A stretch of 63,648 nt of DNA, filler included, from Chthonomonadaceae bacterium (GCA_035650735.1; 4 parts of 4 records of this genome joined end to end with filler, not necessarily neighbours in it); one strand, 5' to 3'. Counted from the first letter of the whole stretch, positions 16,300-46,479 are shown. A program made the numbers and translations. The notes: generated from the letters alone by a model not told the origin.

Positions 16300-17283
16300 A
16301 TGCGCAAGGTGAAGTGGGGCGTGCTGGGCTGTGCGGCCTTCGCCAAAAGCACCGCCATTCCGGCCATGAAGCGGGCGGAGGGCGTGGAATTGGCGGGTAT
16401 CGCCAGCCGCAGCCGAGAGAAGGCGGAAGCGTTCGCCCGCGAGTTTGGCTTTCCGAAGGCGTATGGCTCCTACGAGGAGATGCTGGCCGACCCCGAAATT
16501 GAGGCGGTCTACATTCCGCTTCCCAACGGCCTGCATGCGGAATGGACCGTCAAGGCGGCGCAGGCCGGCAAGCACTCCCTGGTCGAAAAGCCGTTTGCTG
16601 CCAACCTGGAGCAGGCGCTTGCCATGGCGGAGGCGGCCCGCGCGTCTCAGGTCAAGATCATGGAAGCCTTTATGTGGCGCTTCCATCCGATGCACCAGCG
16701 CGCCCGGCAGCTTATTCGCGAGGGCGCCCTCGGTGCCGTCCGCTTTGTGCGCTCGGCCTTTACCTTTACTATTGCGCGCCAGCCCAACGTGCGGCTCGAC
16801 CCCGATCTGGCCGGCGGCGGCATCATGGATGTGGGCTGCTACTGCATCAGCGCCGTCCGCTTTCTCTTCGAGGACGAGCCCCTGCAAGTCTACGCCCACG
16901 CCGACTTCGACCCCGAATACCAGGTGGATATGCTGGCTGTCGGCCTGCTGGAGTTCCCCCAGGGCTGGGCCACCTTCGACGCCGGGTTTGCCCTGCCCTA
17001 TCGCTGCGACTATGAGGTGGTCGGAAGCAAGGGGCGAATCGTGGCGCCCAAAGCCTTTCTGCCCGGCGAAGAGGCCGAGCTGCACATCGAGATCAACGGC
17101 AAGACGACACGCGAGCCCTTCTATGGCGTCAACCAATGGGCGCTGGAGTTTGAGCATATATCGCGCAGCATCGCGGCGGGGGAGCCGCTCGCTTTCGACC
17201 CCGACGATGCCGTCAAACAGCAGAGGGTAATAGATGCCATCTTCCGCTCCACCGTTACCGGCCAACCTGAAACTATAGTATAG
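16300..17283 (+). CDS. Gfo/Idh/MocA oxidoreductase
   Basis: VYIPLPNGLH, VEKP, GGGIMDVGCY. Confidence 0.92.
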   Translation: MRKVKWGVLGCAAFAKSTAIPAMKRAEGVELAGIASRSREKAEAFAREFGFPKAYGSYEEMLADPEIEAVYIPLPNGLHAEWTVKAAQAGKHSLVEKPFAANLEQALAMAEAARASQVKIMEAFMWRFHPMHQRARQLIREGALGAVRFVRSAFTFTIARQPNVRLDPDLAGGGIMDVGCYCISAVRFLFEDEPLQVYAHADFDPEYQVDMLAVGLLEFPQGWATFDAGFALPYRCDYEVVGSKGRIVAPKAFLPGEEAELHIEINGKTTREPFYGVNQWALEFEHISRSIAAGEPLAFDPDDAVKQQRVIDAIFRSTVTGQPETIV

Positions 17284-17357
17284 ATCTCAGTTGTAGTAGT
17301 AGGGAGGCGACTAATGAATGCCTCTCGGCCAACCTGAAACTATAGTATAGATCTCAG
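17259..17357 (+). repeat. Repeat-insert-repeat unit 1 (30-32-bp duplication, period 67)
   Basis: CGGCCAACCTGAAACTATAGTATAGATCTCAG at 17259-17290 and 17326-17357. Confidence 0.95.
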
Positions 17358-17379
17358 ACCTCTAGCCCAGGCCCCTTCC

Positions 17380-17602
17380 TGACCTAACCCCTCGGCCCCC
17401 TTCCCTTGTAGGGAAGGGGGACCCGACCTAGGATGGTTGCGGCCCCCATCCCCTCTCCCACGCTGCGGGAGAGGGGAGAGGCCCCCCACCCTGGCCCTCC
17501 CCCTATTCTTGGGGGAGGGGAGAGGGGAAGCCGGGTCCCCCCTTCCCTGTGAGCGAAGCGAACGCATCAGGGAAGGGAGTCGCGTAGCGACGGGTGGGGT
17601 TA
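17380..17602. repeat. Cluster of REP-like family A palindromes (CCCTCACCCC/CCCTCTCCC...GGGAGAGGGG)
   Basis: Stacked CCCTCTCCC/GGGAGAGGG and CCCTTCCC/GGGAAGGG hairpins; the family recurs near 228, 16206, 26808, 29465, 30447, 33224, 35727, 39235. Confidence 0.75.
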
Positions 17603-17622
17603 GGTCTAAGTTGCCTAAGAGC

Positions 17623-17654
17623 AAAACGACCCTGCTGTACTCTACACAGCAGGG
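17623..17654 (-). terminator. Terminator downstream of the solitary CRISPR repeat
   Basis: Minus strand: CCCTGCTGT-gtagagt-ACAGCAGGG-TCGTTTT. Confidence 0.65.
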
Positions 17655-17689
17655 CCGTCGTGTTTCTCACGCCAATAGGCCATGAGTTT

Positions 17690-17726
17690 GTTTCAACCCT
17701 CGCCCAGCCCGAAGACCGGGCGCTAC
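17690..17726 (-). CRISPR. Solitary 37-bp CRISPR repeat-like unit (type I-C-like)
   Basis: GTAGCGCCCGGTCTTCGGGCTGGGCGAGGGTTGAAAC: palindromic stem and canonical TTGAAAC 3' end; single copy, no cas genes in the window. Confidence 0.7.
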
Positions 17727-17728
17727 GA

Positions 17729-18022
17729 TTAATGCTTGCCGCCTTTATGGGCGCTGTGGGCTGCGTGACCGCTTTTGCCGGGCTTGGTCGTCAGGCTTTT
17801 GTCCATTTTGCAGGCAGAGCAGCAGTACATCGTCTTGCCCTTGATATAGACGGCGGTCGGGTTTTTGTCGGTTTTCTTGGCGCTCAGGGGCATCTTGCAG
17901 GCGGGACACATCATCACCGCAGCCGGTTTCTTCGCTTTCTTAGGCGGAGCGGCGACTGCCAGGCTAGATACCAGGGCTAGCAGCGCAACCGACATCGTAC
18001 CACGTGCAATCCAGTTCTTCAT
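17729..18022 (-). CDS. Small secreted metal-binding (YHS/TRASH-like) protein
   Basis: Signal peptide, CPAC...YCCSAC, His-rich tail. Confidence 0.65.
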   Translation of the reverse strand: MKNWIARGTMSVALLALVSSLAVAAPPKKAKKPAAVMMCPACKMPLSAKKTDKNPTAVYIKGKTMYCCSACKMDKSLTTKPGKSGHAAHSAHKGGKH

Positions 18023-18243
18023 TGTACTCCTCCCAACGTCAGGATAAGCTAAAATTAACTACAAGTCAGGGATTTTCCTGCTTGTCTGTTTTTTACGACG
18101 TAATTTTCGGTGAAATGTTGCAAACCGCCTAGCCGGATCCTAGTTGCGCAGGGAATCTCGTTGTCGAACACGAACAAGCGCGTAGGGCGCCTTCGGCTTC
18201 TCTGAGAGGCCGTCCCGGAAACCTGATTGGAGGTAGCGCAACG

Positions 18244-19341
18244 ATGGCACGCTACGAGATAACCCGACGGGAAGCGCATGGAACGATTGCCTACTACCTT
18301 ACCGATACCGCGCGCCGCGCCGAGGCCGTCCTCTATCCGGCCTTCGGCAATAACTGCGTTGAGTTCCGCACGACGCCCGATCCCGACGGCAGCGACGCCT
18401 CCGGCAGCGATAGCGCGCCGGTAGACCTGTTCGTTCCGCCAAACAACGTGGAAGAGCTGCGCAACGCCCCCTTCCATGCCGGGCAGCCGATCCTCTTCCC
18501 CTTTCCCAACCGCGTCGAAAACGGCACGTATACCTTTGAGGGCCGCACCTACCATATGGATAAGCTGTTGGCAAAGGGATGGGACAAGGGCGCAGGGCAG
18601 GCGATCCACGGGCTGGTAGGGGATAAAGAGTGGACGGTGGAGGAGGTGAGCGCGACCGAGGAGGGCGCGGTGGTGCGCGCCTTTATCCAGATGGATGCGA
18701 TTCCCGACATCTACGAACAGTATCCGTTTTCCTGCCGCCTGACCGTCACCTATCGGCTGCGCGAGGGCGTGCTGGAGATGCGGACGGAGGTGATCAACAC
18801 GGGCCAGGGCGCGCTGCCGATGGGCTTTGGCATCCACCCCTGGTTTCCGGTGGCGCTGCGGCCCGGCGTCCGGCTGACCGGCGATCCGGTCGGCATTGCG
18901 CCCGAGCAGCGCGCCGAGGCGCAGGTGCATGTGCCCGCTAGCGCCTACTGGGAGCTGCAAAAGCTGATGCCCACCGGCAAAACGATCCCTGTGGACAACC
19001 CGCCCAGCATCTATGACCTGCGCCAGTTCCGTCCGCTGGACAATCACTTTTACGACAACGTCTTTACCCAGGTGCAGCGCCGCCCAGATGGCTGGAGCGA
19101 GGGCGGGCTGCGCGACCCGGCGCAGGGGCTGGAGATGTATGTCGCCGCCGACCGGCAGTTCCGCGATTGGGTGCTCTACGCACCGCTCAATCGCCCCGTC
19201 ATCGCGCTGGAGCCCTACACCTGCACCACCAACGCTGTCAATCTACAGCCCAGAGGCATTGATGCCGGACTGATCGTGCTGCCGGCCGGGCAGACGTGGG
19301 CAGGCGCGATCCATTTCGGACTGCGCCGCATCCAGGGCTAA
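18244..19341 (+). CDS. Aldose 1-epimerase family protein
   Basis: LFPFPNRV, AIHGLV, GFGIHPWF, IALEPYT. Confidence 0.9.
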   Translation: MARYEITRREAHGTIAYYLTDTARRAEAVLYPAFGNNCVEFRTTPDPDGSDASGSDSAPVDLFVPPNNVEELRNAPFHAGQPILFPFPNRVENGTYTFEGRTYHMDKLLAKGWDKGAGQAIHGLVGDKEWTVEEVSATEEGAVVRAFIQMDAIPDIYEQYPFSCRLTVTYRLREGVLEMRTEVINTGQGALPMGFGIHPWFPVALRPGVRLTGDPVGIAPEQRAEAQVHVPASAYWELQKLMPTGKTIPVDNPPSIYDLRQFRPLDNHFYDNVFTQVQRRPDGWSEGGLRDPAQGLEMYVAADRQFRDWVLYAPLNRPVIALEPYTCTTNAVNLQPRGIDAGLIVLPAGQTWAGAIHFGLRRIQG

Positions 19342-19419
19342 AAGACCTCACCGGGCAAGTTTGCAGCAGTGGCGTACCCTTTTGCCGGCCCTTTTCTGTC
19401 TAGAGGAAAGGAGCTATCT

Positions 19420-20544
19420 ATGCTCAGGAAACGAACCGTTCGCGCCTTGATTGCCGGCCTGCTCTGCGCCTTCGCCCTGCTCGCTCGCCCGTCTGTCGCG
19501 GCGCCGCCTGTCTATAAGGTCGTGGACCTGGGCGTGTTGCCGGGGGGCGACCAATCGCTCGGATTCGGCATCGGTTACTTTGCCTCCGCTGTCGGCCGTT
19601 CCACCAATGCTTCCGGCCATAATGAGGCCTTCTACTGGGCAGGCGGCTCTATGTTCGGCCTGGGAACGCTGCCCGGATATACCGACAGCGTCGCCGAGGG
19701 AGTGACGGAATTTGCCCCGTTCTTCCCCGTGATCGTGGGCTACAGCTTCAACACGCTCGTGCCCGATGACAGCCGCGCGTTGGTAAGCGTGTTTGGTTTT
19801 ATGCTCGATCTGGGCTCCCTGGGCGGTCCGAACAGTCGCGCCCATGCTATCGCCGGTCAGGGGTTCATCGTCGGCGAGTCCCAGCTCGCGCAGGCTCCCC
19901 CCGACATTCGCCATGCCTTCCGAACGCAGCCGTTCAGCTTCCTTAATCCGCTCACCGACGACCTGGGCACGCTGGCCGGCGCCGACTCAAGCTTTGCCAC
20001 CGCCGTCAACAACGGGGCGCAGGTGACCGGGCAGTCGGGCGGCCATGCCTATCGGACCGCGCCGTTCAGCAAGATCAACCCGGCCACCGACGACCTGGGC
20101 ACGCTCGGCGGCAGCTTCAGCATCGGCTTTGGCATCAACCAGGCGGGGATTGTCGTGGGCCTGTCCAACACAGCCGACATCTCCCCAACCACCGGTGAGC
20201 CGATTGACCATGCGTTCCTGGCCGACGCGACGGGGATGCATGACCTGGGAACCGTGCCGGGCTACGAGAACAGTTCCGCCGCGGCGATCAATGACCTCAA
20301 CCAGGTCGTCGGGATTATCGGCAACGCCCCGCCCGACTTCCATGCGATGATCTGGGATAGCACACACGGTATGCGCGACTTGAACACGCTCATCAGCCCG
20401 AGGTTAGGCTGGCTGCTGCAAGCGGCGCGCGCCATCAACAATCGGGGCCAGATTGTAGGCTGGGGCCTGCATCACGGTCGGCTGCACGCCTTTCTGCTGC
20501 GTCCCTCAAGGACAGTTCCTCTGCACTCCCCAAGAAACGCATGA
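19420..20544 (+). CDS. Secreted HAF-repeat protein
   Basis: Signal peptide; repeated DLGTLGG...INxxGQVVG...HAF units. Confidence 0.85.
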   Translation: MLRKRTVRALIAGLLCAFALLARPSVAAPPVYKVVDLGVLPGGDQSLGFGIGYFASAVGRSTNASGHNEAFYWAGGSMFGLGTLPGYTDSVAEGVTEFAPFFPVIVGYSFNTLVPDDSRALVSVFGFMLDLGSLGGPNSRAHAIAGQGFIVGESQLAQAPPDIRHAFRTQPFSFLNPLTDDLGTLAGADSSFATAVNNGAQVTGQSGGHAYRTAPFSKINPATDDLGTLGGSFSIGFGINQAGIVVGLSNTADISPTTGEPIDHAFLADATGMHDLGTVPGYENSSAAAINDLNQVVGIIGNAPPDFHAMIWDSTHGMRDLNTLISPRLGWLLQAARAINNRGQIVGWGLHHGRLHAFLLRPSRTVPLHSPRNA

Positions 20545-20570
20545 GTCATCCCAAAAATGGGATGACTCAT
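20541..20570. terminator. Perfect 13-bp hairpin between convergent ORFs
   Basis: ATGAGTCATCCCA-AAAA-TGGGATGACTCAT. Confidence 0.5.
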
Positions 20571-20642
20571 TATGCGTTTCTATAGGGCTTCCTGGAGGAA
20601 TATACGGCGAGCCAGGAAGGGACGGGCCGCCTTGCATCCAGG

Positions 20643-20876
20643 TTATTCCCGCCTGTCTGGATAAGGATTAGTGGGGGGCGTCTCGGGCAGGCGCTTGATC
20701 AGTCCCATCTGGTAGAGGGCAACGGAGAGGCTAGATGCCTCCTCCTGCTGGTTCATCGAGAGCGGAATATCGGTATCCGTCAGGGAGTGCGCCTTGTCAG
20801 GGCTATCCTGAAGCGCAAGGGCCAGATAGTGAAAATACATGCGGATCGCATGAACGGTCTGTTGTAGGGCTTGCAT
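20643..20876 (-). CDS. Hypothetical protein
   Basis: Short ORF with GGAG RBS; no motif. Confidence 0.35.
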   Translation of the reverse strand: MQALQQTVHAIRMYFHYLALALQDSPDKAHSLTDTDIPLSMNQQEEASSLSVALYQMGLIKRLPETPPTNPYPDRRE

Positions 20877-21205
20877 GATATAACTCCATCGAGAGAGAGA
20901 CATTGCGCAGTCATCCTTGACTGCCGGTTTAGAATAGGGATGTCCTTATCCTGGTCAGACTAGAAAACGGGAGGATATTGTTCCCGTGTTATCGCCAGCA
21001 GCCGAAACGAGATACCTAAGCTAGCGTTTCGCGCTAGGAATAAGTTCCTGATTCGCTGCCGAACCATGCAATCCTTTCGCCAGAGCAAACAATTTATAAA
21101 AAAATTATAGCAATTTGTTGCTGCCGGGCAGTTCCATCTCTGCCATACAGGACGACGCTGCCTGTACGAGCCGCCCTGCTGTGCCTTCTATGCTATACTG
21201 ATGGT

Positions 21206-23263: not shown

Positions 23264-23283
23264 CCCTCCCTCACTCCTCTCCC

Positions 23284-23475
23284 GGCAGGCTAAACCCTGC
23301 CGCTCGGGGGCGCTTTGCGCCCGTCGCCCACCTACGTGGGCGAGACTCCCTGCCTGCGCAGGCAGTACCTATAGAGAGGGGTGGTAATGATCCTGCGTAT
23401 CTCCCGGATCTTCTGCCTGCGCAGGCGGGCAGAAGGCCATAGGCCCCACAGCGGCAGGCTAAACCCTGCCGCTTC
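23284..23475. repeat. REP-like family B copies
   Basis: GGCAGGCTAAACCCTGCCGCT twice plus CCCACCTACGTGGGCG. Confidence 0.75.
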
Positions 23476-23559
23476 AGGGCCGGGCAGGGAAGGGAGACGG
23501 AGGGTTAGGTGCAACTTCCGGCCCTGGAGTTTGCTCTCCCTTATCCAAGGGTGAAAGCT

Positions 23560-24441
23560 ATGAAGCAAGCGTATCTGCGGGCTTATTGGAAGCACCTGCG
23601 CGTTCCCTTCCAGCTTTCGCTGGCGCCGCTATTCCTCTGGGGCTATTTTCTTGCTTCGCTCCGTCTCACCCCCGCGTTTGCGCTCGGCTTTCTCTCGTTT
23701 CATTTCTGCCTCTATACCGGCATCACCGCCTTTAACTCTGCCTACGACCGGGACGAGGGGCCGGTCGGGGGAATGCTTTCGCCGCCGCCCGTGCCGCCCG
23801 GGCTGCTGGCGTTCTCGCTGGCAGTGCAGGCGGTCGGGGCTGTGCTTGCAGCGTGCGTGAACGCGGCCTTTCTGGCTATCTATGGGATCATTGCGGCCCT
23901 GGGGGCGGCCTACTCGCATCCGCGCGTGCGCTGGAAAGCGTCACCGGCGGCGAGCGCGATCACGGTCTTTATCGGGCAGGGAGCGCTGGGATTTCTGGCA
24001 GGCTGGGCGGCGGCAACGGGAGGGATTGCCACAGCGGGGAGCGAGCGGGGGATTCTGGGGATGCTCTCGGCGGCCTTTACCACGCTAGGACTCTATCCGC
24101 TGACGCAGGTATATCAGATCGCGGAGGACGCGGCGCGCGGCGACCGGACGCTGGCGGTGGCGCTGGGTCCGACGAGAGCGCTCTGTTTCGGCCTGGGCTG
24201 CCTGGCGCTGGCGGGGCTGGCGGCGACGACGGCGATGGCGCGCACCTCTACCCGGCTCGATGCCCTGCTCGTCGCTGCCGCCTATATCCTCATCCTCTGG
24301 CAGGTGGCGCGATTCGCTCAGGACTACCGCCGACAGCGCCACACGGTCCTCAGCGCGTTCCGCACGGCCATGCGCCTTAACTTCCTTACCTCCGCCGGCT
24401 TTCTGCTCTTCATCGCCCTGCACCTGGCCCACCTGCTTTAA
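23560..24441 (+). CDS. UbiA family prenyltransferase
   Basis: Multi-TM; NSAYDRDEG, YSHP.VRWK, QIAEDAARGDRTLA. Confidence 0.85.
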   Translation: MKQAYLRAYWKHLRVPFQLSLAPLFLWGYFLASLRLTPAFALGFLSFHFCLYTGITAFNSAYDRDEGPVGGMLSPPPVPPGLLAFSLAVQAVGAVLAACVNAAFLAIYGIIAALGAAYSHPRVRWKASPAASAITVFIGQGALGFLAGWAAATGGIATAGSERGILGMLSAAFTTLGLYPLTQVYQIAEDAARGDRTLAVALGPTRALCFGLGCLALAGLAATTAMARTSTRLDALLVAAAYILILWQVARFAQDYRRQRHTVLSAFRTAMRLNFLTSAGFLLFIALHLAHLL

Positions 24442-25508: not shown

Positions 25509-25523
25509 GGCGTCTCCTTTTCT

Positions 25524-39352: not shown

Positions 39353-41698
39353 ATGATTCTGAGGAAAGCTGTATGGGGCGTCGCGTGCCTGCTATTGCTG
39401 ACAGGCGTCGCGTACCGCAGGGGACAGGCTGCCGACCGGCTGGAAGGCGCGGCGTGGAGCGTAACGGCGGCAGGTTTCGAGGATAAAGGGATTCGGGCCT
39501 TGAGCGGCGCGGACGGTGTGGTCGCGTCGGCCACGCGCGGCGGGGCGCGCTGCCTGACTACGCAGGCAGGAACCACGCCGCCCTCTGCCTACCTCTACTT
39601 TCAGGTGGATGCGGGCCGCGCGCAGGGGGCGAGCGGGCCGATCTACGCGGTGGTCAGCTATTTTGACGATGGGATCGGCGCGGGGCTGCGGCTGGAGTAC
39701 GACAGCGCAATCGGCGACGATCTGGGCGCGAAGTATCGGGCGGCAGAGGAGCAGGCGGGCGGCTGGTCGCTCGGAGCCAGGCAGTGGAAGACCGCCATCT
39801 TCCGTTTGCAGCGCCCGCTCTTCGCCCATCGGGAGAACCTGGGCGCGGATTTCCGCCTGAGCGGGCCGCGCCTCTTCGTCCGCTCGGTGCGGTTGACGCA
39901 CGCGCGCCCGGCTAACTGGGAGGAGGCCGACCGAATCGGGGTGGTGGACGTGAAGCCGCTGGTGCATATCGGGCCGGGAAAGCAGCTTATTATCGGCGGG
40001 TTTGACCCGGCCCATGTGTCCGACGCCGTACCCCAATCCCGCGCTCTGGAAGCGGCCATGCCCGCGCTTAAATCGCTCGGCGTGACCAGCCATGAGGGCT
40101 ATGTGCGCTGGAACCTCTGCGAGCCTGCGCCGGGCCGCTACGATTGGAGCGTCTACGACCGGTTCGTGCAGGTCTACAAGCGGCACGGGCTGAAGTGGGT
40201 GCCGTTCCTCATCATCGGCTCGGCCTACAGCCTGCCGGATTGGTACTACAAAAAGCCGGGTTCGCAGGGCTACGTCTGCCTGGAGCACGGTCAGGAGTCG
40301 GACGTGCAATCGCTCTGGAACCCGACCCTGCGCCAGCATGTCGCCCGCTTCATCAAAGCCTTCTGCGACCACTATCGCCCGACCGGCGTCATCGAGTCGA
40401 TTCTGCTCGGCATCACCGGCAACTACGGCGAAGCCATCTATCCCGTCACCGGCAACGACTGGACGGCGGATATTCACGGGCCGTATCATACACATCCGGG
40501 CTATTGGGCGGGCGATAAGTACGCGGTGGAGAGCTTCCGGCTCTGGCTGATCCAGAAGTACGGCGGCACGAGCCGATTGCGCGACGCCTGGGGGACGCAG
40601 TTTGGCAACATCAATCAGGTGCGGCCCTTCCTGCGCAAAGATGCCCCCAACGACCGCGCCTGGCTGGATTTCGTGGACTGGTACATCGGCTCCATGACCG
40701 ACTACGCGCGCTTCTGGCTGCGCGAGACGCGCAAGAACTTCCCGCAGGGTGGCATCTACCTGTGCACAGGCGGGCATGCGCCGCCGGAGCACGGCTCGGA
40801 CTTCGGCGCGCAGTGCAAGGCGGCGGCGGAGATTGGCGGGGGCGTGCGCATCACCAACGAGGGCAGCGACTACCGCGCCAACTTCTCCCTGACGCGCTGG
40901 GTGGCCTCGGCGGGCCGGCAGTACCGCGCCTACTTCAGCTTTGAGCCGGCGGGCGGGGTGGATGCCAACGGCGTCATCGCCCGCATCTATAACGCGGCGA
41001 CCTCCGGCGCCCTCGGCCTGCACTACTACTTCCCCAACCTCTTCGACAGCGAGCAGGCCCGCCAGAACTTTATCCGCTGGGGCGGGCAGTTCCGGGATTA
41101 TCGGCCCTACGCAGAGATCGCCGTCTACTACCCGGAGACCTATATCAAGCTTCACGGCAACGACTTCCTGGGCCGCGTTCAGCCCCTGCGCGACCGCTTC
41201 GACTTCGACTACATGAGCGACGGGCAGATCGCCGACGGCGGTCTGGAGCGCGTGAAGGCGCTGATTTTGCTGGAGGGCAGCGTCTCCGAGGCGAAGACCT
41301 GGCAGGCCATTACGGAGTGGGTGCGGCAGGGCGGCGTGCTGTTCTACGCGGACGGCATGGGCCGCCTGCGCACGGTGGAGGGAGACGACAGCCCCTACAG
41401 GAATCTGCTGGGAGTGGACGCCAATCAAGGCAAGGGACGCGTCCTGGTCTTCCACGGCAATCCCGACAGCGCCGAGTACCGCGCCTTCGTGACGGGCGAG
41501 CTGGCGAAGCTGGACCGACTCAGCCCGGCGGTACGCGCGATGGTTCAGGGGGACGGCCAGGAGGACGGCGTCTTTGTCGCCGCCTGCAAGCCCAACCTCC
41601 TCGTCTGGCTCAACTACACGCCCAACCCCGCCCGCAAGGAAGGCAGCCTCACTCTGCCGCCCTTCTCGATTGTCACCTCGGAGGTTGGGCCGCGTTAA
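39353..41698 (+). CDS. Secreted glycoside hydrolase (GH14/GH42-like TIM barrel)
   Basis: Signal peptide; YVRWNLCEPAPGRYDWS, GNYGEAIYP, C-terminal trimerisation-like domain. Confidence 0.7.
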   Translation: MILRKAVWGVACLLLLTGVAYRRGQAADRLEGAAWSVTAAGFEDKGIRALSGADGVVASATRGGARCLTTQAGTTPPSAYLYFQVDAGRAQGASGPIYAVVSYFDDGIGAGLRLEYDSAIGDDLGAKYRAAEEQAGGWSLGARQWKTAIFRLQRPLFAHRENLGADFRLSGPRLFVRSVRLTHARPANWEEADRIGVVDVKPLVHIGPGKQLIIGGFDPAHVSDAVPQSRALEAAMPALKSLGVTSHEGYVRWNLCEPAPGRYDWSVYDRFVQVYKRHGLKWVPFLIIGSAYSLPDWYYKKPGSQGYVCLEHGQESDVQSLWNPTLRQHVARFIKAFCDHYRPTGVIESILLGITGNYGEAIYPVTGNDWTADIHGPYHTHPGYWAGDKYAVESFRLWLIQKYGGTSRLRDAWGTQFGNINQVRPFLRKDAPNDRAWLDFVDWYIGSMTDYARFWLRETRKNFPQGGIYLCTGGHAPPEHGSDFGAQCKAAAEIGGGVRITNEGSDYRANFSLTRWVASAGRQYRAYFSFEPAGGVDANGVIARIYNAATSGALGLHYYFPNLFDSEQARQNFIRWGGQFRDYRPYAEIAVYYPETYIKLHGNDFLGRVQPLRDRFDFDYMSDGQIADGGLERVKALILLEGSVSEAKTWQAITEWVRQGGVLFYADGMGRLRTVEGDDSPYRNLLGVDANQGKGRVLVFHGNPDSAEYRAFVTGELAKLDRLSPAVRAMVQGDGQEDGVFVAACKPNLLVWLNYTPNPARKEGSLTLPPFSIVTSEVGPR

Positions 41699-41760
41699 GC
41701 TTCCAGCGAGAGAAAGGCAGGCAGGGAAGCTTTGGGTGAGATGGCTGAAGAAGGCGGCGC

Positions 41761-42102
41761 TCAGGCGATTGCAAACTCGGTCTGGGAACGCACCGAGGGC
41801 GGTTGAAAGCCCAGAACAATGTCTTCCTTCGGCACGCCGTTCGCCACCAACTCATTGGCGATGCCGTCTTCCGTCCAGTCCTCCTCAATCCATATCTTGC
41901 CGTCCTGAATGCGTAGATAGAGGGTTGCGCCGTGCAGACGGCGTTCCCCTACCCAGCCGGTATTGACTAGCAGGTACTGGTCCCGCTCCTCATCCAGCGC
42001 GCAATACTGCTCATGGCCCTCTTGCCCGCAGCGGCGAAACAGCGCCTCTTTTTCCAGCAGCAGGCGCTTGATAAGGGTGCGATAGCGGCTTACTCGATCC
42101 AT
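41761..42102 (-). CDS. xisI: XisI family protein
   Basis: DEERDQYLL..GW, GKIWIEEDWTEDGIANELVANGVPKEDIVLGF. Confidence 0.9.
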   Translation of the reverse strand: MDRVSRYRTLIKRLLLEKEALFRRCGQEGHEQYCALDEERDQYLLVNTGWVGERRLHGATLYLRIQDGKIWIEEDWTEDGIANELVANGVPKEDIVLGFQPPSVRSQTEFAIA

Positions 42103-42283
42103 CGGACGATCTCCTCCTTCGTGACATTGACGACCAGAATCGCCATCCGGCTTAAAACCACAACTTCCCGCAGGCCGTCTCGCTCCAGAATGCTATGATA
42201 CGCCTCCTCACTCACGGCCAGATAGACTTGATGTCCACTCCCGGTCAACTGAACGAGATAGCAGTAGAACTGGTATTGACCTA
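42090..42283 (-). pseudogene. xisH: XisH C-terminal remnant truncated by IS630
   Basis: LGQY..Y...VYLAVS...EEIVRWIE, overlapping the xisI start. Confidence 0.8.
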
Positions 42284-43498
42284 GTGCCCCCTCAAGTGAC
42301 CTGTTGTGCGAGGGGCTCGAGCAGTTCGCACTGGTAGTAGGCACACAGACGCTCTTTGAGTTCTGCCATCGTCAACTTCCGGTCGGGTTCGACAAGGGCC
42401 CGCTTGCCATGGACCCACTTGGGCTCAATGTTGTTGAGCCAGGGACTCTTGCTGGGCAGAGGGCAAACCAGCAGACGACAGCCCCCTGCTTTCTTAACTG
42501 TGCGCTTATGCGCTTGGAGCCAGGTGCGCACCGGCTGGCTCTTATGCCAGGAGGCATTGTCCCAGAGGAGTACCAGGGCCTTCTTGCCCTGCTTTGTCAT
42601 CTGCTCGGCTAGCCAGGCCAGGAAGTCACAGGTGACCTGGCTGACCGGACGCCCCTGGACAAAGCGCAGCAGCCTCTGGCCTGTATCGGAGAGCAGAACC
42701 CCGTAACAGGCCAGGGCTTTGGGAGCGGGGTCGGCTTTGTCGGCCTCTGTCTCCAAAAGAGGCAGCGGCTTGGCCTCTGTCCAGGTGTGCAGGGAGGGCT
42801 GTGCCAAGCGAGAAAACCAGACCTCGTCTTATAACCCAGTTGCCAGTCGGGATGGCGCTCCAACAAGGCTATCAGGCGTTCGCGTCGGTTTTTTTGCGCG
42901 CATAAGCCGGGTCGGGACTGGTGCTCCAGCGCTTGGCCCGCTTCCAATCAAAGCCCAACCGTTGCATCGCCTGTCGGATCGTCTCGCCCGACAAGACCCG
43001 CTCCGACACGCCTTGCTCCTTAGCCACTTGGGCTAACAGCGGAAGCGTCCAGGTGCTGTAGGCTTTACCATAGGCTCGCGGCGACTGATGCAGCAGAGCC
43101 CGCAGGCGCTCGCGCTTGGCCCCATCCAGCACCGGAACCGCCGACTTGGGGCGGGAGGAGCCTTCAGTCAAACAGGCCAAGCCGCCTGCGTTGAAGGCCT
43201 TAATACCGTTGCGGACAGTTTGCACGGCGCCAATGCAGTTGCTTGGCAATGGCCGAGGGCTTGTGTCCTTGTGCGCTAGCCAGCACGATCTGGGCCCGGC
43301 GCAGAGTAAAGGCGCTTTTGGAGCGCAAGCCCGCTTCCAGTTGGGCCTGCTCGTCTGGTGTGAGTGGACGAACGTAAAGGGGTGGTAGCATAGCAAGAGG
43401 ATACCACCCAATAGACTACTTGCACAAGCTAGTTCGGCGCGCTCGATCCGATTGAGCTTGTAACGGGATACCACCCAATAGACTACTTGCACAAGACC
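42284..43498 (-). mobile_element. IS630-family element; transposase 43391-42292 with several frameshifts
   Basis: HTH (RRAQIVL, QTVRN), A7 slippery site ~42889, WDNASWH, LPSKSPWLNNIE; CTAG (TA target) at both ends. Confidence 0.9.
43399..43495 (-). repeat. Repeat-insert-repeat unit 2 (30-bp duplication, 37-bp insert)
   Basis: GGATACCACCCAATAGACTACTTGCACAAG at 43399-43428 and 43466-43495. Confidence 0.95.
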
Positions 43499-43499
43499 T

Positions 43500-43655
43500 A
43501 GCCTGAGATTGCACGGCCAGATCCCGGCAGAGCAGTTAGGCGACTTCAGCGTCTCTAATCTGGAGAAGGACCTCAACCCGACGCGCTCTGGCTCGCCCGT
43601 GTCACGCCGCAACCAGTACCCACTCAATTTTACGATCGTCAACTTCCCGCGCTGA
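43500..43655 (+). pseudogene. Orphan C-terminal gene fragment truncated by IS630
   Basis: Open frame SLRLHGQIPAEQ...YPLNFTIVNFPR* starting at the IS junction. Confidence 0.4.
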
Positions 43656-43832
43656 GCGCGTCGGGGCGCGTTGTTGCTTATCGGTGGTCTGGACGCAGGC
43701 GTGCAGAACATTCCGGCGGCTCCGCCACGAGCCACACTGATAGCGAGTACAGGAAGGGAACAGCGCTCAGTCGAATACGCAAAAGAGCCAGGTGAATGGG
43801 TCAGGCAACGCCGAGGGGGGGAGCGTAGGCGA

Positions 43833-45839
43833 TTGGATGCGGAAGCGAAATCCAGGGATAGAGCGCAGGATAACCAACCCGAGCGGAGCGCGCGGGCCGT
43901 TGCGCACGGTATCGGATTGCGCGGGCGGGTGGTCGTCGCCGCCGTCATCGGCATCGCGCTCAACGCCTGGCTGCTCACCGAGGTCGAGATGGTCCGCTTC
44001 ATTGCGCTCGGCAGCATGTGGAGCCTTTCACCCCTGGTGCTCACGGAGACCCTCCTGGCTCTGCTTCTCTTCACTCCGCTGCGCAGGAGTGAACGCTGGC
44101 GGTGGCGCGCAAGGGACTTCCTGGCCCTGTATATTCTGCTGACCCTGGGAACGGCCCCCATCAGCTTCGATGGCGCCTTTGCGCTGACGGGCCTGCTCGC
44201 GTTTCCCTCTAGTCCGCTGGCGCACCCGCCTGATTGGCGCAGTGAATGGCTGGCAAGCCTGCCGCCGCGACTCCTCGTAACGGATACCCTTGCCGCCAAC
44301 GCGGCGGTGCTGGGCAACCATGCCTTCTGGTCCGAGGGGCTGTGGGTCGCGTGGATCAAGCCACTGGCAGGCTGGACAGGTCTGCTGGCGACCCTGAGCA
44401 TGGTCTACCTGGGCCTCAGTTGTCTGCTGCATCGGCGCTGGTCGCAGCAGCAGCGGTTAGCCTACCCCCTCGCCACGCTGCCGGTGGCCTTGTTTGCGGA
44501 GGACCCGCCCCTGTGGCGCCGTCGCGCGTTCTGGAGCGGCGCGGCGCTGGCTGCGGGGCTGGCCACGCTCAACCGCTGGCAGCCGCTTTTCCCTTTCTTA
44601 CCCTCTATCCCGGTGGATATTCGCCAGATACCCTGTCCTTTTCCGCTGCCGCCCTGGTCCGCACTGGGCGACATCTTCATCGGCTGTCCGCTCTGGATGT
44701 TTGGAATGGCCTTTCTCGCGCCCCTGGATGTGCTCTTTTCGACGGTACTCTGTTACTGGATGTGGCGGCTGGCGCTGGTCGGGGCGGCGTTTGCGGGCCG
44801 GGGAGACGTGAACGGGGTTTATGGCTCAGCGGGCGGGCTGTATCTCAACCATATCTCTTACGGCGCGTATCTGGGGCTGGGAATCGGCGCGCTCTGGTCG
44901 GCGCGGCGGCATCTGCTTTGGGGCTTTCGGAAGCTCCCGGATCGCCAGGCATCTGAGGACAGGGAGACGGCGATTTCCTATCGCCTCGCCGCTAGCCTGG
45001 TGGGCCTCGGCATTCTCGGCCTCTGGGGCTGGAGCCTGTGGCTGGGCCTATCGGCCTCCTTTGCCTTCGCCTTCTTCTGCCTGATGCTCCTGACGGCGGT
45101 CGCCCTCGGACGTATCCGGGCGGAGCTGGGGGTCGTCGCCTACGGTATGCTCGGCATGGCGCCCGTGCAGATGCTCGCCGGCACCATCGGCGCTACCTCG
45201 CTGACCCAGGTAGATCAGGTGGTGGGAATGCAGCTGCTCAACTATGGGCTGACTTACGGCCAGCGCAGCAATCTCATGCCGCTACAGGTGGAGGCGCTCA
45301 AGGTCGCAGAGCGCGGCGGCGGGGTGGGGCGCCCCTTAATGGTCGGGATGCTGTGCGCTGCGGTGCTGGGCATCGGCTTGGGACTGTTGGCTGCGGGGAT
45401 GGCGCTTACCCGGCATGGCGCGATGAGTGGGCAGAGCGTCCAGCCTTCCTATACGGTCTTCACCTGGGCCACGGATAGGCTCAATAGCTGGGCTGAGAAC
45501 CCCAGGCAGTTCGGTTTTAATCCCGCTGCGACCCTGGCGGTCGGCGTGGGCGTGGGGATCACACAGCTTCTGTTCCTGTTGCGCACCAACTTCCTCGCGT
45601 TTCCCCTGCATCCCATCGGTTTTGCCATCGCCTCCGACTATAACTGCCACTTCTTCTGGATGGCCTTTACCTTGGCCTGGCTGGTCAAAGGCGCGCTGCT
45701 GCGCTACGGCGGATTGCGCGCTTATCGTCGGATGCTGCCCTTCTGCCTGGGATTGATCGTGGGCGATTTCGTCATGATGGTGGTCAATGGGCTGCTGCTG
45801 GCCGCCCTCGGAGTGAAACCTCAAGAACTGACCATGTGA
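43833..45839 (+). CDS. Polytopic membrane protein, DUF6785/DUF6784-like (OPT-related)
   Basis: W..QRLAYPL..LP, RIRAELG, FPLHPIGF, LLRYGG...Y...PFCLGLIVGD; start uncertain. Confidence 0.75.
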   Translation: MDAEAKSRDRAQDNQPERSARAVAHGIGLRGRVVVAAVIGIALNAWLLTEVEMVRFIALGSMWSLSPLVLTETLLALLLFTPLRRSERWRWRARDFLALYILLTLGTAPISFDGAFALTGLLAFPSSPLAHPPDWRSEWLASLPPRLLVTDTLAANAAVLGNHAFWSEGLWVAWIKPLAGWTGLLATLSMVYLGLSCLLHRRWSQQQRLAYPLATLPVALFAEDPPLWRRRAFWSGAALAAGLATLNRWQPLFPFLPSIPVDIRQIPCPFPLPPWSALGDIFIGCPLWMFGMAFLAPLDVLFSTVLCYWMWRLALVGAAFAGRGDVNGVYGSAGGLYLNHISYGAYLGLGIGALWSARRHLLWGFRKLPDRQASEDRETAISYRLAASLVGLGILGLWGWSLWLGLSASFAFAFFCLMLLTAVALGRIRAELGVVAYGMLGMAPVQMLAGTIGATSLTQVDQVVGMQLLNYGLTYGQRSNLMPLQVEALKVAERGGGVGRPLMVGMLCAAVLGIGLGLLAAGMALTRHGAMSGQSVQPSYTVFTWATDRLNSWAENPRQFGFNPAATLAVGVGVGITQLLFLLRTNFLAFPLHPIGFAIASDYNCHFFWMAFTLAWLVKGALLRYGGLRAYRRMLPFCLGLIVGDFVMMVVNGLLLAALGVKPQELTM

Positions 45840-45987
45840 CCCTTCCCGATTATTCCCGAAACAAGGCGGTCGTGGTCTACTGTAGGGGCAGGGAATCCGT
45901 GAGTCGGCACGCTCTGCATGTGCCCTGGCGCGTTATCGCTCTGTACAGGCGGAGGGTTCTATGGTATGATGGAGGCGGAGGAGAACC

Positions 45988-46191
45988 ATGAGCGAAACGA
46001 TGCTGAGCAAGCCCAAGCGCAAAACCACCGCCGACTACAAAGCCATCGCTGACCAACTACTGACAGGAATGAGACGACTGGATGAATTAATGCAGAAAGA
46101 CCGTACCGAAATCGAATGTCTCAAGGCGGAAACCGCGCGTCTAGAAGCCGAAAACCGGGTCGTTCTCTCCCGCTTGAAGACGATGTGGTAG
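45988..46191 (+). CDS. Small coiled-coil hypothetical protein
   Basis: GGAGGAG RBS; 67-aa ORF. Confidence 0.55.
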   Translation: MSETMLSKPKRKTTADYKAIADQLLTGMRRLDELMQKDRTEIECLKAETARLEAENRVVLSRLKTMW

Positions 46192-46360
46192 GCCATGTGG
46201 CAGAAAGTCATAGACTTCACGGGACCGCGAAATCCAACGGTTGCGTCTGGAAAACATGCTCTTGCGTTTTGAGCGTGGCTTGCCTCCCGCAAGCAAGCCG
46301 GAGAGCGAAGACGAGCCGTAGGTGTTTCTTGCAGGCGACAGAGATTGTCTTGCAAAGCCC

Positions 46361-46389
46361 TTGACAAGAGGACGAATTGCCCCTACAAT
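46361..46389 (+). promoter_or_regulatory. Sigma70-type promoter upstream of the DUF1559 cluster
   Basis: TTGACA, 17 bp, TACAAT. Confidence 0.75.
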
Positions 46390-46479
46390 CAAACCTATGT
46401 ACCGGCGGGTGTCTAAGGCCGCACATCGCTTCTCGCAGTCATCGTGCGCCCTACAATCAAACCTATGTACCGGCGGGTG
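46381..46479 (+). repeat. Repeat-insert-repeat unit 3 (30-31-bp duplication, period 68)
   Basis: CCCTACAATCAAACCTATGTACCGGCGGGTG at 46381-46411 and 46449-46479. Confidence 0.95.

What the first reader, a model, noticed from the sequence alone, without database searches (positions are those of the whole stretch)
17259..46479. Three ectopic repeat-spacer-repeat scars with CRISPR geometry but host-derived repeats
Seen: three unrelated sites (17259, 43399, 46381) each have an exact 30-32-bp direct repeat around a unique insert, with periods 67, 67 and 68 (30 + 37/37/38). The repeats differ from each other and are local DNA: a gene 3' end, an IS630 end and a promoter. Oriented as CGGCCAACCTGAAACTATAG, CTTGTGCAAGTAGTCTATTG and CCCTACAATCAAACCTATGT, they share C1, A12 and CTAT at 15-18. 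Known: Cas1-Cas2 inserts fixed-length spacers while duplicating the repeat; 30-bp type I-B-like repeats often have a central CCTAT; off-target integration has been shown experimentally in E. coli. Inference: a promiscuous Cas1-Cas2(-Cas4) or unknown integrase is writing short foreign fragments across the chromosome. Three events in 64 kb would be a high natural density.
Basis: partly seen in the sequence, partly recalled or inferred. Interest (0 to 1): 0.9.

Follow-up and report, generated by a model that had tools for sequence, protein, structure and literature searches.

The report
Misplaced CRISPR spacer insertions, genome-wide
The three small scars are real and belong to some 70-100 places in this bacterial genome where the enzyme that writes CRISPR immune memories seems to have pasted a spacer-sized DNA snippet at the wrong address, copying about 30 bases of ordinary host DNA each time and sometimes breaking genes.

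Summary
Observation confirmed. The three units are exact: repeats of 32, 30 and 31 nt at periods 67, 67 and 68. The "window" is four contigs of a 6.5-Mb draft genome.

Genome-wide there are 53 isolated units of the same geometry (duplication mode 30 nt, insert mode 37 nt). There are also 5 units of 28+33 nt and 16 of 35-40+33-40 nt. A simulated genome gives no exact repeat longer than 16 nt.

The only cas1-cas2 is type I-B with cas4. It sits beside an 80-repeat array with a 29/30-nt repeat and periods of 65-67.

- The target sites share the resident repeat's mid-repeat positions A12, C14, G18 and T19. These are the ruler motifs known from Haloarcula type I-B.
- Six inserts copy the genome itself; four of these protospacers carry a CCG motif.
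- Orthologues lack the insertion at two in-gene sites.
- Contigs from several studies carry the units.

This is known from laboratory E. coli. This scan has already noted it in at least 29 other genomes.

The parts
17259..17290 (.). Site 1, copy 1 of the duplicated target. The exact run is 32 nt; the motif register suggests a 30-nt duplication starting at 17261. It holds the last 8 codons and the TAG stop of the Gfo/Idh/MocA gene.
17291..17325 (.). Site 1 insert, 35 nt between the exact runs (37 nt if the duplication is 30 nt). Unique in the genome; source not found.
17326..17357 (.). Site 1, copy 2 of the duplicated target.
16300..17283 (+). Gfo/Idh/MocA-family oxidoreductase gene. Its native 3' end is kept in copy 1.
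   Evidence: PF01408, PF22725, PF02894
43399..43428 (.). Site 2, copy 1 of a 30-nt duplicated target, directly upstream of the transposase ORF on the minus strand.
43429..43465 (.). Site 2 insert, 37 nt. Unique; source not found.
43466..43495 (.). Site 2, copy 2.
   Evidence: One Logan contig in each of runs X1 and X2 spans 42800-46410, and one in X5 spans 42907-46410, all with 0 differences. A JGI metagenome contig also holds both copies 67 nt apart.
42292..43399 (-). Transposase in two ORFs: HTH_32/HTH_29 part 42872-43399 and DDE_3 part 42292-42807. No second copy exists in the assembly.
46381..46411 (.). Site 3, copy 1 (31-nt exact run; motif register favours 46382-46411). It begins inside the -10 hexamer TACAAT.
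46412..46448 (.). Site 3 insert, 37 nt. Unique; source not found.
46449..46479 (.). Site 3, copy 2. It carries a second TACAAT without a -35 box.
   Evidence: A 97-98-nt unitig covering 46382-46478/9 is present in runs X1, X2, X5 and X7.
46361..46389 (+). Sigma-70-like promoter TTGACA-17-TACAAT (11 of 12) upstream of the DUF1559 / N-terminal-methylation gene at 46604-47518.

Best explanation
The three units, and the 53-unit class they belong to, are natural off-target spacer integrations made by this organism's own type I-B Cas1-Cas2 adaptation module, with Cas4.

Proposed mechanism. The integrase loads a prespacer of about 37 nt, selected next to a CCG motif, partly from the cell's own chromosome. 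Instead of the leader-proximal CRISPR repeat it engages an ordinary DNA site. That site happens to carry the two mid-repeat anchor motifs at the right spacing: AAC(C) at positions 11-14 and GT at positions 18-19, with G-rich and C-rich flanks. The integrase makes two staggered strand transfers 30 bp apart. Gap repair then duplicates those 30 bp on either side of the insert.

Consequences. Surviving events lie mostly between genes. Some split genes or add about 23 residues to a protein. One site was hit twice and is a three-repeat 'neo-array'.

Shown here: the geometry, the genome-wide excess, the presence of a matching cas module and array, the motif resemblance, the self protospacers with a shared flank, the derived state at two sites, and presence in contigs of several public runs.

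Inferred, not shown: that this particular Cas1-Cas2 catalysed the events, the order of the two strand transfers, and the role of Cas4.
For: 1. Geometry. There are 53 isolated exact units. Duplication lengths are 28:1, 29:9, 30:25, 31:12, 32:5, 33:1 and periods run 64-70 with a mode of 67-68. The resident array has 80 identical 29-nt repeats, with a variable 30th base, at periods of mainly 65-67.

2. Excess over chance. 50 isolated exact 28-34-nt repeats fall at periods 64-70, against 16 at all other periods from 40 to 120. The longest exact repeat in a Markov-simulated genome is 16 nt.

3. Cas genes. One cas1 (TIGR03641 type I-B, 431 bits) and one cas2 lie beside the array, with cas4, cas3, cas5, cas7 and a csm module.

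4. Site similarity to the resident repeat. The in-register match to the resident 30-mer is 11.46 on average for 52 sites, against 9.21 (sd 2.10) for 8465 GC-matched random sites. The enriched positions are A12 (0.60 vs 0.25), C14 (0.60 vs 0.36), G18, T19 (0.63 vs 0.23), A28 and C30.

5. Flanks, which were not used to orient the sites. G at -2 has frequency 0.59; C at +32 and +33 has 0.50 and 0.54; n = 74.

6. Known ruler motifs. These positions are the resident AACCA and GTGGA. [quoted passage not shown]

7. Self-derived inserts. 6 of 53 inserts match distant loci of the same genome over 36-39 nt with at most 1 mismatch. 4 of the 6 protospacers have CCG immediately 5', and a fifth has CC followed by G as the first insert base. 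The CCG trinucleotide frequency is 0.031, so P(>=4 of 6) = 1.3e-5. None of the 79 resident spacers has a full-length self match.

8. Polarity. The unit at C125:44700 adds 22-23 residues in frame to a conserved gene, and two orthologues lack exactly this stretch (alignment A2). The unit at C136:1460 (67 nt) splits a gene that is one 325-aa frame in genome G019.

9. Survivor pattern. Both flanks lie in GC3-supported ORFs for 6 of 53 units, against 73% of random sites; both flanks are non-coding for 30 of 53, against 21%.

10. Independent DNA. One contig in each of X1 and X2 spans 42800-46410, and one in X5 spans 42907-46410, through site 2 with 0 differences and 0 gaps. Unitigs break exactly at the 31-nt repeat of site 3, as a k=31 graph must. 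A fourth run, X7, holds the site 3 insert. A JGI contig holds site 2.

11. Re-use of a site. C224:43547 has three copies of one pseudo-repeat around two different inserts.
Against: 1. Lengths are not identical to the array. The resident array duplicates 29 nt (its 30th base varies) and its period mode is 65-66. The ectopic units mostly duplicate 30 nt with a period mode of 67-68. I have no tested explanation for this.

2. The PAM of the resident spacers could not be determined. No protospacers were found in phages, plasmids or 68 genomes of the order. The CCG link to the resident module is therefore indirect.

3. Insert orientation relative to the site motif is not consistent in the few informative self-derived cases: C68 reads one way and C204:4511 the other (my reading of the sequences printed).

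4. One of the six self protospacers (C57) lacks CCG, and two inserts have one terminal base that does not match their source.

5. No empty allele of any of the three window sites was found.

6. The 28+33 and 35-40 classes have no cognate cas1-cas2 in this 97.6%-complete assembly.

7. A relative with an orthologous Cas1 (74% identity) and a much larger array shows none of these units in 800 kb sampled. Having the module is therefore not sufficient, and what makes this lineage prone is unknown.

8. Runs X1, X2 and X5 are each flagged as a possible source of this DNA, so they are not fully independent support.
Confidence: 0.86

Rival explanations
1. The units are Cas1-Cas2 integrations, but were made by a different adaptation module with a true 30-nt repeat and 37-38-nt spacers. 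That module has since been lost, or lies on a plasmid that was not binned. The resident I-B module is innocent.
For: - Ectopic duplications are mostly 30 nt with periods of 67-68, whereas the resident array duplicates 29 nt with periods of 65-66.
- Relatives' orthologous arrays have 30-nt repeats and periods of 66-68.
- Two further geometry classes (28+33 and 35-40+33-40) have no cognate cas genes in the assembly. Adaptation modules that are now absent must therefore have acted in this lineage, or be missing from the bin.
- The assembly is a 224-contig draft.
Against: - Site preference matches the resident repeat's own motif positions.
- 43 of 66 unique-core class A units have no mismatch between copies, and the self-derived inserts are still identical to their sources. 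The events are therefore recent, and the resident module is present and looks intact.
- Only one cas1 was found at 97.6% completeness.
Confidence: 0.07
2. An integrase unrelated to Cas1, or a DNA-repair process such as templated insertion at breaks, creates a fixed ~30-bp target duplication around ~37-nt fragments.
For: - Catalysis by Cas1-Cas2 was not shown here.
Against: - No known enzyme other than Cas1-Cas2 gives repeat-length duplications around spacer-length inserts (established knowledge; recalled).
- Both lengths match the resident array to within 1-2 nt.
- The sites carry the resident repeat's ruler motifs.
- The sources carry a PAM-like flank.
- Unlike that earlier case, 0 of 16 inserts of the 35-40-nt class and only 6 of 53 of the 30-nt class copy the genome.
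Confidence: 0.04
3. The units are an assembly or sequencing artefact, or replication slippage.
For: - The genome is a draft from metagenomes.
- 30 nt equals k-1 for a k=31 de Bruijn graph.
Against: - The unique 35-40-nt inserts must come from reads.
- Site 2 is contiguous and identical in contigs of three runs from three studies, and in a JGI contig.
- There are three discrete geometry classes.
- The units are strongly depleted from coding sequence.
- The sites share a sequence motif.
- Inserts are not copies of adjacent DNA.
- Slippage would give tandem copies without a unique insert.
Confidence: 0.01

Closest known systems
Off-target ('non-canonical') spacer integration and neo-CRISPR loci in E. 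coli over-producing type I-E Cas1-Cas2 (Nivala, Shipman and Church 2018, Nat Microbiol 3:310). The paper is not held. It is known here only through passages of citing papers: PMC7054753, PMC6698737 and bioRxiv 10.1101/148544.
   Same: - Spacer-sized inserts outside any array.
- Duplication of a repeat-length stretch of ordinary DNA.
- Sites that resemble the repeat.
- A site hit twice, giving a small new array (C224:43547).
   Different: - Natural, not induced by over-expression.
- Type I-B with Cas4, in an uncultured soil/mine bacterium.
- 53 exact units (66 with decayed ones), against 79 spacers in the proper array.
- Fixed in the population and shaped by selection.
- Part of the inserts are self-derived with a CCG flank.
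- According to 10.1101/148544 (passage), natural occurrence rested on 'circumstantial evidence' in two other species.
Mid-repeat ruler motifs of type I-B adaptation in Haloarcula hispanica (Wang et al. 2016, PMC4872114; abstract read).
   Same: - A 30-bp duplication.
[quoted passage not shown]
- The ectopic sites here are enriched at exactly these positions.
- Duplication sizes of 29-33 bp occur in both.
   Different: - There, the motifs were defined by mutating a real repeat behind a leader.
- Here, they emerge from natural leaderless sites.
- Only the first 2-4 bases of each motif are enriched.
In vitro off-target integration by Pyrococcus furiosus Cas1-Cas2 at plasmid sites that share features with the repeat (PMC6698737; passages read), and frequent off-target integration by the type V-C mini-integrase (mentioned in PMC13034035; passage).
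   Same: Off-target sites reveal context-independent repeat elements that the integrase recognises.
   Different: Those are test-tube or plasmid assays. Here the record is chromosomal, heritable and filtered by selection.
Earlier findings of this scan on other genomes: e1-6524404, e1-6519098, e1-6524293, e1-6527508 and e1-7085311 (AI notes, not checked by me).
   Same: Dozens to hundreds of repeat-length duplications around spacer-length inserts, some in genes, about half self-derived in one case.
   Different: - Those are mostly ammonia-oxidising archaea and sponge symbionts with 36-37-nt duplications.
- This one is a bacterium with a 30-nt type I-B geometry plus two further geometry classes.

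Membership tests
Off-target Cas1-Cas2 spacer integration (neo-CRISPR type event) | The target duplication has the length of the resident CRISPR repeat. | tested here: met
   Duplication mode is 30 nt (25 of 53; range 28-33). The resident repeat has 29 conserved nt plus a variable 30th base, and orthologous arrays have 30 nt. The 1-nt difference from the resident array's own 29-nt duplication is unexplained.
Off-target Cas1-Cas2 spacer integration (neo-CRISPR type event) | The insert has the length of resident spacers, and inserts are unrelated to one another. | tested here: met
   Inserts are 35-40 nt with a mode of 37. Resident spacers are 36-38 nt (periods 65-67 minus 29). BLAST of all inserts against the genome, which contains all the other inserts, gave no insert-to-insert matches apart from two inserts drawn from one heptamer-repeat family.
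Off-target Cas1-Cas2 spacer integration (neo-CRISPR type event) | A cas1-cas2 module of matching type is encoded in the genome. | tested here: met
   For the 30+37 class: one type I-B cas1 plus cas2 plus cas4 lie beside the array. Not met for the 28+33 and 35-40 classes.
Off-target Cas1-Cas2 spacer integration (neo-CRISPR type event) | Target sites share recognition elements with the genuine repeat. | tested here: met
   The in-register match is 11.46 against 9.21 (sd 2.10). A12, C14, G18 and T19 are enriched. Flanks show G at -2/-3 and C at +32/+33.
Off-target Cas1-Cas2 spacer integration (neo-CRISPR type event) | Inserts derive from protospacers that carry the system's PAM. | tested here: inconclusive
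   6 of 53 inserts have self protospacers. 4 of those 6 have CCG upstream, and 1 more is shifted by one base. The PAM of the resident spacers could not be found.
Off-target Cas1-Cas2 spacer integration (neo-CRISPR type event) | The filled state is derived: an empty site exists in relatives. | tested here: met
   Met at two in-gene units, C125:44700 and C136:1460. Not obtainable for the three window units.
Off-target Cas1-Cas2 spacer integration (neo-CRISPR type event) | The events depend on Cas1-Cas2 catalysis. | not testable with these tools
   Needs biochemistry or genetics.
Canonical or orphan CRISPR array | A family of repeats is shared between units, with a leader and several spacers. | tested here: not met
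   Each unit has its own repeat, present exactly twice in the genome (94 of 106 isolated repeats). At two sites this repeat is shown to be ordinary gene sequence. The only exception is the three-copy unit at C224:43547.
Transposon or MITE with target-site duplication | A common element sequence or common termini lie between the duplications. | tested here: not met
   Inserts share no sequence with each other.

The most novel reading that the evidence does not exclude
In this lineage the CRISPR integrase acts as a standing endogenous mutagen. Its scars are also a fossil record of the adaptation modules the lineage has carried.

Three geometry classes are present: 30+37, 28+33 and 35-40+33-40. 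They would then record three different Cas1-Cas2 rulers: type I-B, a type I-E-like one, and a ~37-nt-repeat type that sister genera still carry. Two of these no longer have cas genes in the genome.

The unusually high load of the first class would follow from a drifted leader-repeat junction. Here the leader ends in TGT before the repeat and the array duplicates only 29 nt. Relatives' leaders end in GG and their arrays have 30-nt repeats. Such a junction would no longer out-compete pseudo-repeats flanked by G-rich and C-rich bases.

If so, loss of leader fidelity converts immunity into genome-wide insertional mutagenesis and seeds new arrays.
Probability: 0.3. Interest if true: 0.8.

Novelty: new member of a known kind. 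Interest (0 to 1): 0.66.

Why it matters
Off-target spacer integration is known mainly from E. coli over-producing Cas1-Cas2 and from test-tube assays. How often it happens in nature, what it costs, and whether it starts new arrays are open questions. One preprint (10.1101/148544, passage read) calls it 'unclear' whether it is common.

This genome offers a natural data set that selection has already filtered.
- It has 53-66 type I-B events next to a 79-spacer array.
- The site logo recovers the experimentally defined ruler motifs.
- The self-derived spacers give a PAM-like flank and a 43-kb source hotspot.
- One gene is split, and one protein carries a 23-residue insertion.
- One site was used twice.

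It therefore gives directly testable predictions for integrase specificity and for the fitness cost of CRISPR adaptation. It is also a way to read past CRISPR systems from their scars.

This is not a new kind of system, and the scan has already met the phenomenon in other genomes.

Tried and rejected
1. Empty sites at DNA level in relatives. The nearest genome (same genus, G001) is only about 82-83% identical in genes. Homology stops at the stop codon next to site 3 and at the start of the site 1 repeat. No answer either way.

2. Empty alleles in public data. No joint skipping 67 or 68 nt appears in the Logan contigs of 4 runs; contigs drop rare variants. One JGI contig holds the filled site 2. 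There is no match in the genome collection.

3. Other copies of the transposase element as natural empty sites: none in the assembly.

4. Sources of the three window inserts: no exact match in IMG/VR and none in the genome itself.

5. PAM of the resident array. There were no hits of the array in phages or plasmids. The search of 68 genomes of the order was swamped by array-to-array matches and gave no clear protospacer.

6. A second in-gene polarity test at C68:4604: no orthologue covers the site.

7. De novo EM for a site motif without a seed. The likelihood was well above that of random sites (293 vs 126-152), but runs did not converge on one solution. It was replaced by the in-register and leave-one-out analyses.

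8. Origin of the 35-40-nt class. Similarity to the 37-nt repeat of relatives is weak (z = 2.2). Similarity to the split class A matrix is equally weak (z = 2.3). Left undecided.

9. Contig C15 as a plasmid or prophage source. It carries ordinary metabolic genes plus two restriction-modification systems, so this idea is rejected. Why 4 of 7 self protospacers map to it remains unexplained.

10. In-frame bias of in-gene events. There are too few cases, and several are frameshifting. No claim is made.

11. Notes of this scan for this genome: none exist.

Full report
**1. What the window is**

The 63,648-base window is not one stretch of chromosome. It is four contigs (C154, C155, C157, C169) of a 224-contig, 6.52-Mb, 63% G+C draft genome, joined by runs of N. 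Site 1 lies on C155. Sites 2 and 3 lie on C157.

**2. The observation**

The three direct repeats are exact and at the stated places:

| Site | Copy 1 | Copy 2 | Repeat length | Spacing |
|---|---|---|---|---|
| 1 | 17259-17290 | 17326-17357 | 32 nt | 67 |
| 2 | 43399-43428 | 43466-43495 | 30 nt | 67 |
| 3 | 46381-46411 | 46449-46479 | 31 nt | 68 |

Each repeat occurs exactly twice in the genome, and each insert is unique.

- Site 1 covers the last eight codons and the stop of a Gfo/Idh/MocA oxidoreductase gene, so copy 1 keeps the native 3' end.
- Site 2 lies directly upstream of a two-ORF transposase with HTH and DDE_3 domains.
- Site 3 begins inside the -10 box of a TTGACA-17-TACAAT promoter (11 of 12) in front of a DUF1559 / N-methylation-motif gene.

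**3. Genome-wide scan**

I scanned every contig for runs where base i equals base i+p, for p from 24 to 300.
- Exact repeats of 26-40 nt pile up at periods 65-68. They also pile up at multiples of that, which come from a true array.
- After clustering, one true array remains (C93:2502-7721), together with 106 isolated two-copy repeats of at least 24 nt at periods 40-120. For 94 of these the repeated sequence is present exactly twice in the genome.
- Plotted as duplication length against insert length, they fall into three tight groups. My list of 55 class A rows held two duplicates.

| Class | Units | Duplication | Insert |
|---|---|---|---|
| A | 53 | 28-33 nt (30 in 25 of them) | 35-40 nt (mode 37) |
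| B | 5 | 28-29 nt | 32-33 nt |
| C | 16 | 35-40 nt | 33-40 nt |

The three window units are class A.

Among isolated exact repeats of 28-34 nt, 50 lie at periods 64-70. Nine lie at periods 40-63 (five of them class B) and 7 at periods 71-120. A third-order Markov genome of the same size has nothing longer than 16 nt.

The class A length distribution is 28:1, 29:9, 30:25, 31:12, 32:5, 33:1. By my hand calculation, this is what a true 30-bp duplication gives if each flanking base matches by chance one time in four: 24, 12, 4.5 and 1.5 expected among the 43 units of 30 nt or more. A 29-bp minority comes on top.

Allowing up to 3 mismatches in 28, the unique-core counts are as follows:

| Class | Counts by mismatches (0, 1, 2, 3, 4) | Total |
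|---|---|---|
| A | 43, 13, 5, 5 | 66 |
| B | 4, 1, 1, 2 | 8 |
| C | 11, 8, 5, 4, 2 | 30 |

Class C is therefore older on average.

**4. The resident CRISPR system**

The genome has one cas1 and one cas2, at a marker-gene completeness of 97.6%. The locus on C93 reads:
- cas7, cas5, cas3 and cas4 of type I-B;
- a type III-A csm module;
- a CRISPR-associated gene;
- cas1 (TIGR03641 type I-B, 431 bits) and cas2;
- then the array.

The array has 80 identical copies of a 29-nt repeat whose 30th position varies. Its periods are 65 (34 cases), 66 (24) and 67 (14).

Full-length orthologues of this Cas1 (60-74% identity) occur in many relatives. In genome G012 the array follows cas1-cas2 on the same strand and has a 30-nt repeat ending in ATTGAAAC. 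That fixes the canonical orientation of the resident repeat. In this orientation it carries AACCA at positions 11-15 and GTGGA at positions 18-22.

**5. Do the ectopic sites look like the repeat?**

Yes. Each duplicated segment was aligned in register to the resident 30-mer, taking the better of the two orientations.
- The 52 distinct class A sites match at 11.46 positions on average.
- 8465 GC-matched random sites treated the same way match at 9.21 (sd 2.10). By hand, z is about 7.7.
- The excess sits at A11, A12 (0.60 vs 0.25), C13, C14 (0.60 vs 0.36), G18, T19 (0.63 vs 0.23), A28 and C30.

A leave-one-out refinement over 74 sites (52 exact and 22 decayed) gives A12 at 0.73, C14 at 0.57, G18 at 0.58 and T19 at 0.57. 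The flanks played no part in orienting the sites. They show G at -2 (0.59) and -3 (0.45), and C at +32 (0.50) and +33 (0.54). This is a symmetric pattern, as expected if both strand-transfer sites have the same local preference.

The abstract of Wang et al. 2016 (PMC4872114) reports the following for type I-B of Haloarcula hispanica. [quoted passage not shown] Changed spacing between them gives duplications of 29 or 31-33 bp. The natural sites here recover those same two anchors at the same positions.

All three window sites carry them. Site 3 matches the resident repeat at 14 of 30 positions by my count from the sequence printed.

Its CTAT at 15-18 is not general.

**6. Where do the inserts come from?**

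BLAST of all inserts and all 79 resident spacers against the genome gave these results.
- Six class A inserts have full-length matches (36-39 nt, at most 1 mismatch) at distant loci.
- Two further class A inserts are drawn from a multi-copy heptamer-repeat family.
- One class B insert matches 32 of 32.
- No class C insert has a match.
- No resident spacer has a full-length match.

That last point fits spacers in the real array being under selection against self-targeting, while ectopic ones are not (inference).

Four of the six class A protospacers have CCG directly upstream. A fifth has CC followed by a G that became the first insert base. CCG has a frequency of 0.031, so P(>=4 of 6) = 1.3e-5.

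Four of the seven self protospacers map to one 43.5-kb contig, C15 (P = 7e-8). That contig carries ordinary metabolic genes and two restriction-modification systems. I have no tested explanation for this hotspot.

The three window inserts have no match in the genome or in IMG/VR.

Insert G+C is 0.61, resident-spacer G+C is 0.61 and genome G+C is 0.63.

**7. Polarity: insertion, not deletion**

Intergenic DNA is not alignable with the nearest genome (same genus, about 82% identity in genes). I therefore used units that lie inside genes.
- C125:44700 (69 nt) lies in frame in a conserved gene. The same-genus orthologue and one from another family of the order lack exactly 22-23 residues, namely the foreign stretch plus the second copy of a 9-10-residue motif (alignment A2).
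- C136:1460 (67 nt) splits a gene into two frames that both carry the duplicated peptide. The orthologue in G019 is one 325-aa frame, collinear with both halves (alignment A3).

So the filled state is derived, and the process does break genes.

Survivors avoid coding sequence. Both flanks lie in GC3-supported ORFs for 6 of 53 class A units, against 73% of 20,000 random sites. Both flanks are non-coding for 30 of 53, against 21%.

**8. Is it in the DNA, or only in this assembly?**

Eight public runs from five studies hold the 4.4-kb stretch around sites 2 and 3. Six of them are flagged as possible sources of this genome.

I laid Logan contigs of four runs from four studies on the stretch.
- X1 and X2 each have one contig covering 42800-46410, and X5 has one covering 42907-46410, through site 2. 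All three show 0 differences and 0 gaps.
- At site 3, whose repeat is 31 nt, the k=31 unitigs break exactly at the repeat. A 97-nt unitig (46382-46478) carries the insert at a depth like that of the flanks.
- The low-coverage run X7 has the same unitig.
- No joint skipping 67 or 68 nt is listed. Contigs cannot exclude rare empty alleles.

A JGI metagenome contig also carries both copies of site 2, 67 nt apart.

**9. How special is this genome?**

G012 has an orthologous Cas1 (74% identity) and an array about 12 kb long. In 800 kb sampled from it I found no isolated 28-34-nt exact repeat at periods 64-70 outside the array. The only isolated hits were one 27+33 unit and one 23+42 unit. At this genome's density, 6.4 would be expected (P = 0.0017). 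Having the module is therefore not enough.

One difference I can see, though I have not tested it, concerns the leader. The leaders of three relatives end in GG before a 30-nt repeat that starts with CC. Here the leader ends in TGT, and the array duplicates only 29 nt, so the first base of the ancestral 30 has become variable. The ectopic sites prefer G-rich upstream flanks and duplicate 30 nt. A weakened canonical junction that competes poorly with pseudo-repeats is a testable hypothesis, not a finding.

**10. The other two classes**

Class B:
- Four of its five units are 28+33. This is the geometry I recall for type I-E, where the last base of the 29-nt repeat comes from the protospacer (recalled, not checked here).
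- Several of its sites, by my eye, contain a palindrome followed by an A-rich tail, like the 29-nt repeat of two cas-less mini-arrays on C109 and C19.
- No type I-E cas2 or cas6e was found. The control for those two families rang only in Thermus, so sensitivity is uncertain.

Class C:
- It matches the geometry of a second CRISPR type, with a 37-nt repeat and periods of 71-75, carried by three genomes of the same family.
- The similarity of class C sites to that repeat is weak (z = 2.2). It is no better than their similarity to the class A matrix (z = 2.3).
- Its maker is therefore open. It could be a lost or unbinned module, or aberrant long duplications by the I-B integrase.

**11. What is known**

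The library does not hold Nivala et al. 2018. Citing papers say the following.
- With Cas1-Cas2 over-produced in E. coli, rare off-target integrations elsewhere in the genome were detected (PMC7054753, passage).
- Such events can spawn neo-CRISPR arrays, with only 'circumstantial evidence' in two other species. It is 'unclear' whether this is common (10.1101/148544, passages).
- P. furiosus Cas1-Cas2 integrates in vitro at non-CRISPR sites that share features with the repeat (PMC6698737, passages).
- The type V-C mini-integrase is frequently off-target (PMC13034035, passage).

Five full-text searches turned up no paper describing dozens of natural chromosomal events. In the papers found, 'ectopic spacer' means integration inside an array (listing).

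Within this scan the phenomenon has been noted before: 36 findings in at least 29 genomes, mostly ammonia-oxidising archaea and sponge symbionts (AI notes, unchecked by me).

**12. Verdict**

Its interpretation, off-target integration by a type I-B-like Cas1-Cas2(-Cas4), is the best-supported explanation (about 0.86).

It is a new natural member of a known kind of event, not a new system.

Its value lies in four things: the size and cleanliness of the record, the recovery of the ruler motifs from natural sites, the self-derived spacers with a PAM-like flank, and the demonstrated gene damage.

Four things remain open:
- the 29 versus 30 nt discrepancy;
- the PAM of the resident array;
- the maker of classes B and C;
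- why this lineage is prone.

Noticed in passing
G000 contigs C109:6231-6382 and C19:53152-53232 (outside the window): Two cas-less mini-arrays of 3 and 2 repeats, with a 28-29-nt type I-E-like palindromic repeat and 32-nt spacers (period 61). Each is embedded between inverted runs of a TTAGGGTTCTAAGG-like short repeat. No type I-E cas genes were found in the assembly.
   Followed up: partly
G000 contigs C3:3536, C19:48197, C89:7863, C121:514, C152:3580, C162:4894, C166:41934: Solitary, slightly degenerate single copies of the resident I-B repeat (at most 6 mismatches in 29), far from the array. They could be array remnants or solitary repeat units of mobile elements.
   Followed up: no
G000 C224:43547-43709: One pseudo-repeat is present in three copies around two different inserts (39 and 36 nt). 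This ectopic site was used twice, giving a minimal new array.
   Followed up: partly
G000 C15 (43.5 kb), protospacers at 2024, 4215, 17136 and 32865; ectopic unit at 24204-24301: Four of seven self-derived inserts come from this one contig of ordinary metabolic genes. It also carries an EcoRV-like endonuclease with a methylase fragment, and a BsoBI-like endonuclease with a methylase. One ectopic unit sits exactly between the BsoBI-like system's methylase and endonuclease genes.
   Followed up: partly
G000 C109:11715-11851: An older class A unit (3 mismatches between copies, period 67) ends 5 nt before the protospacer that supplied the insert at C68:4604. The integration site and a spacer source are adjacent.
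   Followed up: no
G000 C93:8250-9428 (cas1): Cas1 is 392 aa and matches the Cas1 models in two stretches, with about 65 extra residues between profile positions 129 and 130. Full-length orthologues in relatives show that the extra segment is conserved in this clade.
   Followed up: partly
window 14287-14394 (start of contig C155): A 35-nt repeat at period 73 (91% identity). It belongs to a multi-copy G+C-rich element (core present 11 times) that also sits at the ends of contigs C147, C194, C187 and C126. It has class C geometry but is ambiguous because the element is repeated.
   Followed up: partly
window 1-60 (start of contig C154): The first 60 bases occur on 15 contigs, mostly at their ends. 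This is a repeated element, probably an insertion sequence, that breaks the assembly.
   Followed up: no
window 46655-46830: The 5' part of the DUF1559 / N-terminal-methylation gene matches very many places in every relative searched, and Logan depth there rises from about 13 to about 900. It is a very large paralogous family, which I recall as typical of Planctomycetota.
   Followed up: no
G000 C167:27172, C184:38470, C31:3766, C90:6265: Four further class A units of 67-68 nt lie inside long GC3-supported frames that are open only when the unit is removed in silico. They are candidate gene disruptions, not checked against orthologues.
   Followed up: no
G000 C93:2200-2400: Directly beyond the leader-distal end of the array, a frame reads by eye like the C-terminus of an IS21-type helper ATPase. 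No family search was run.
   Followed up: no
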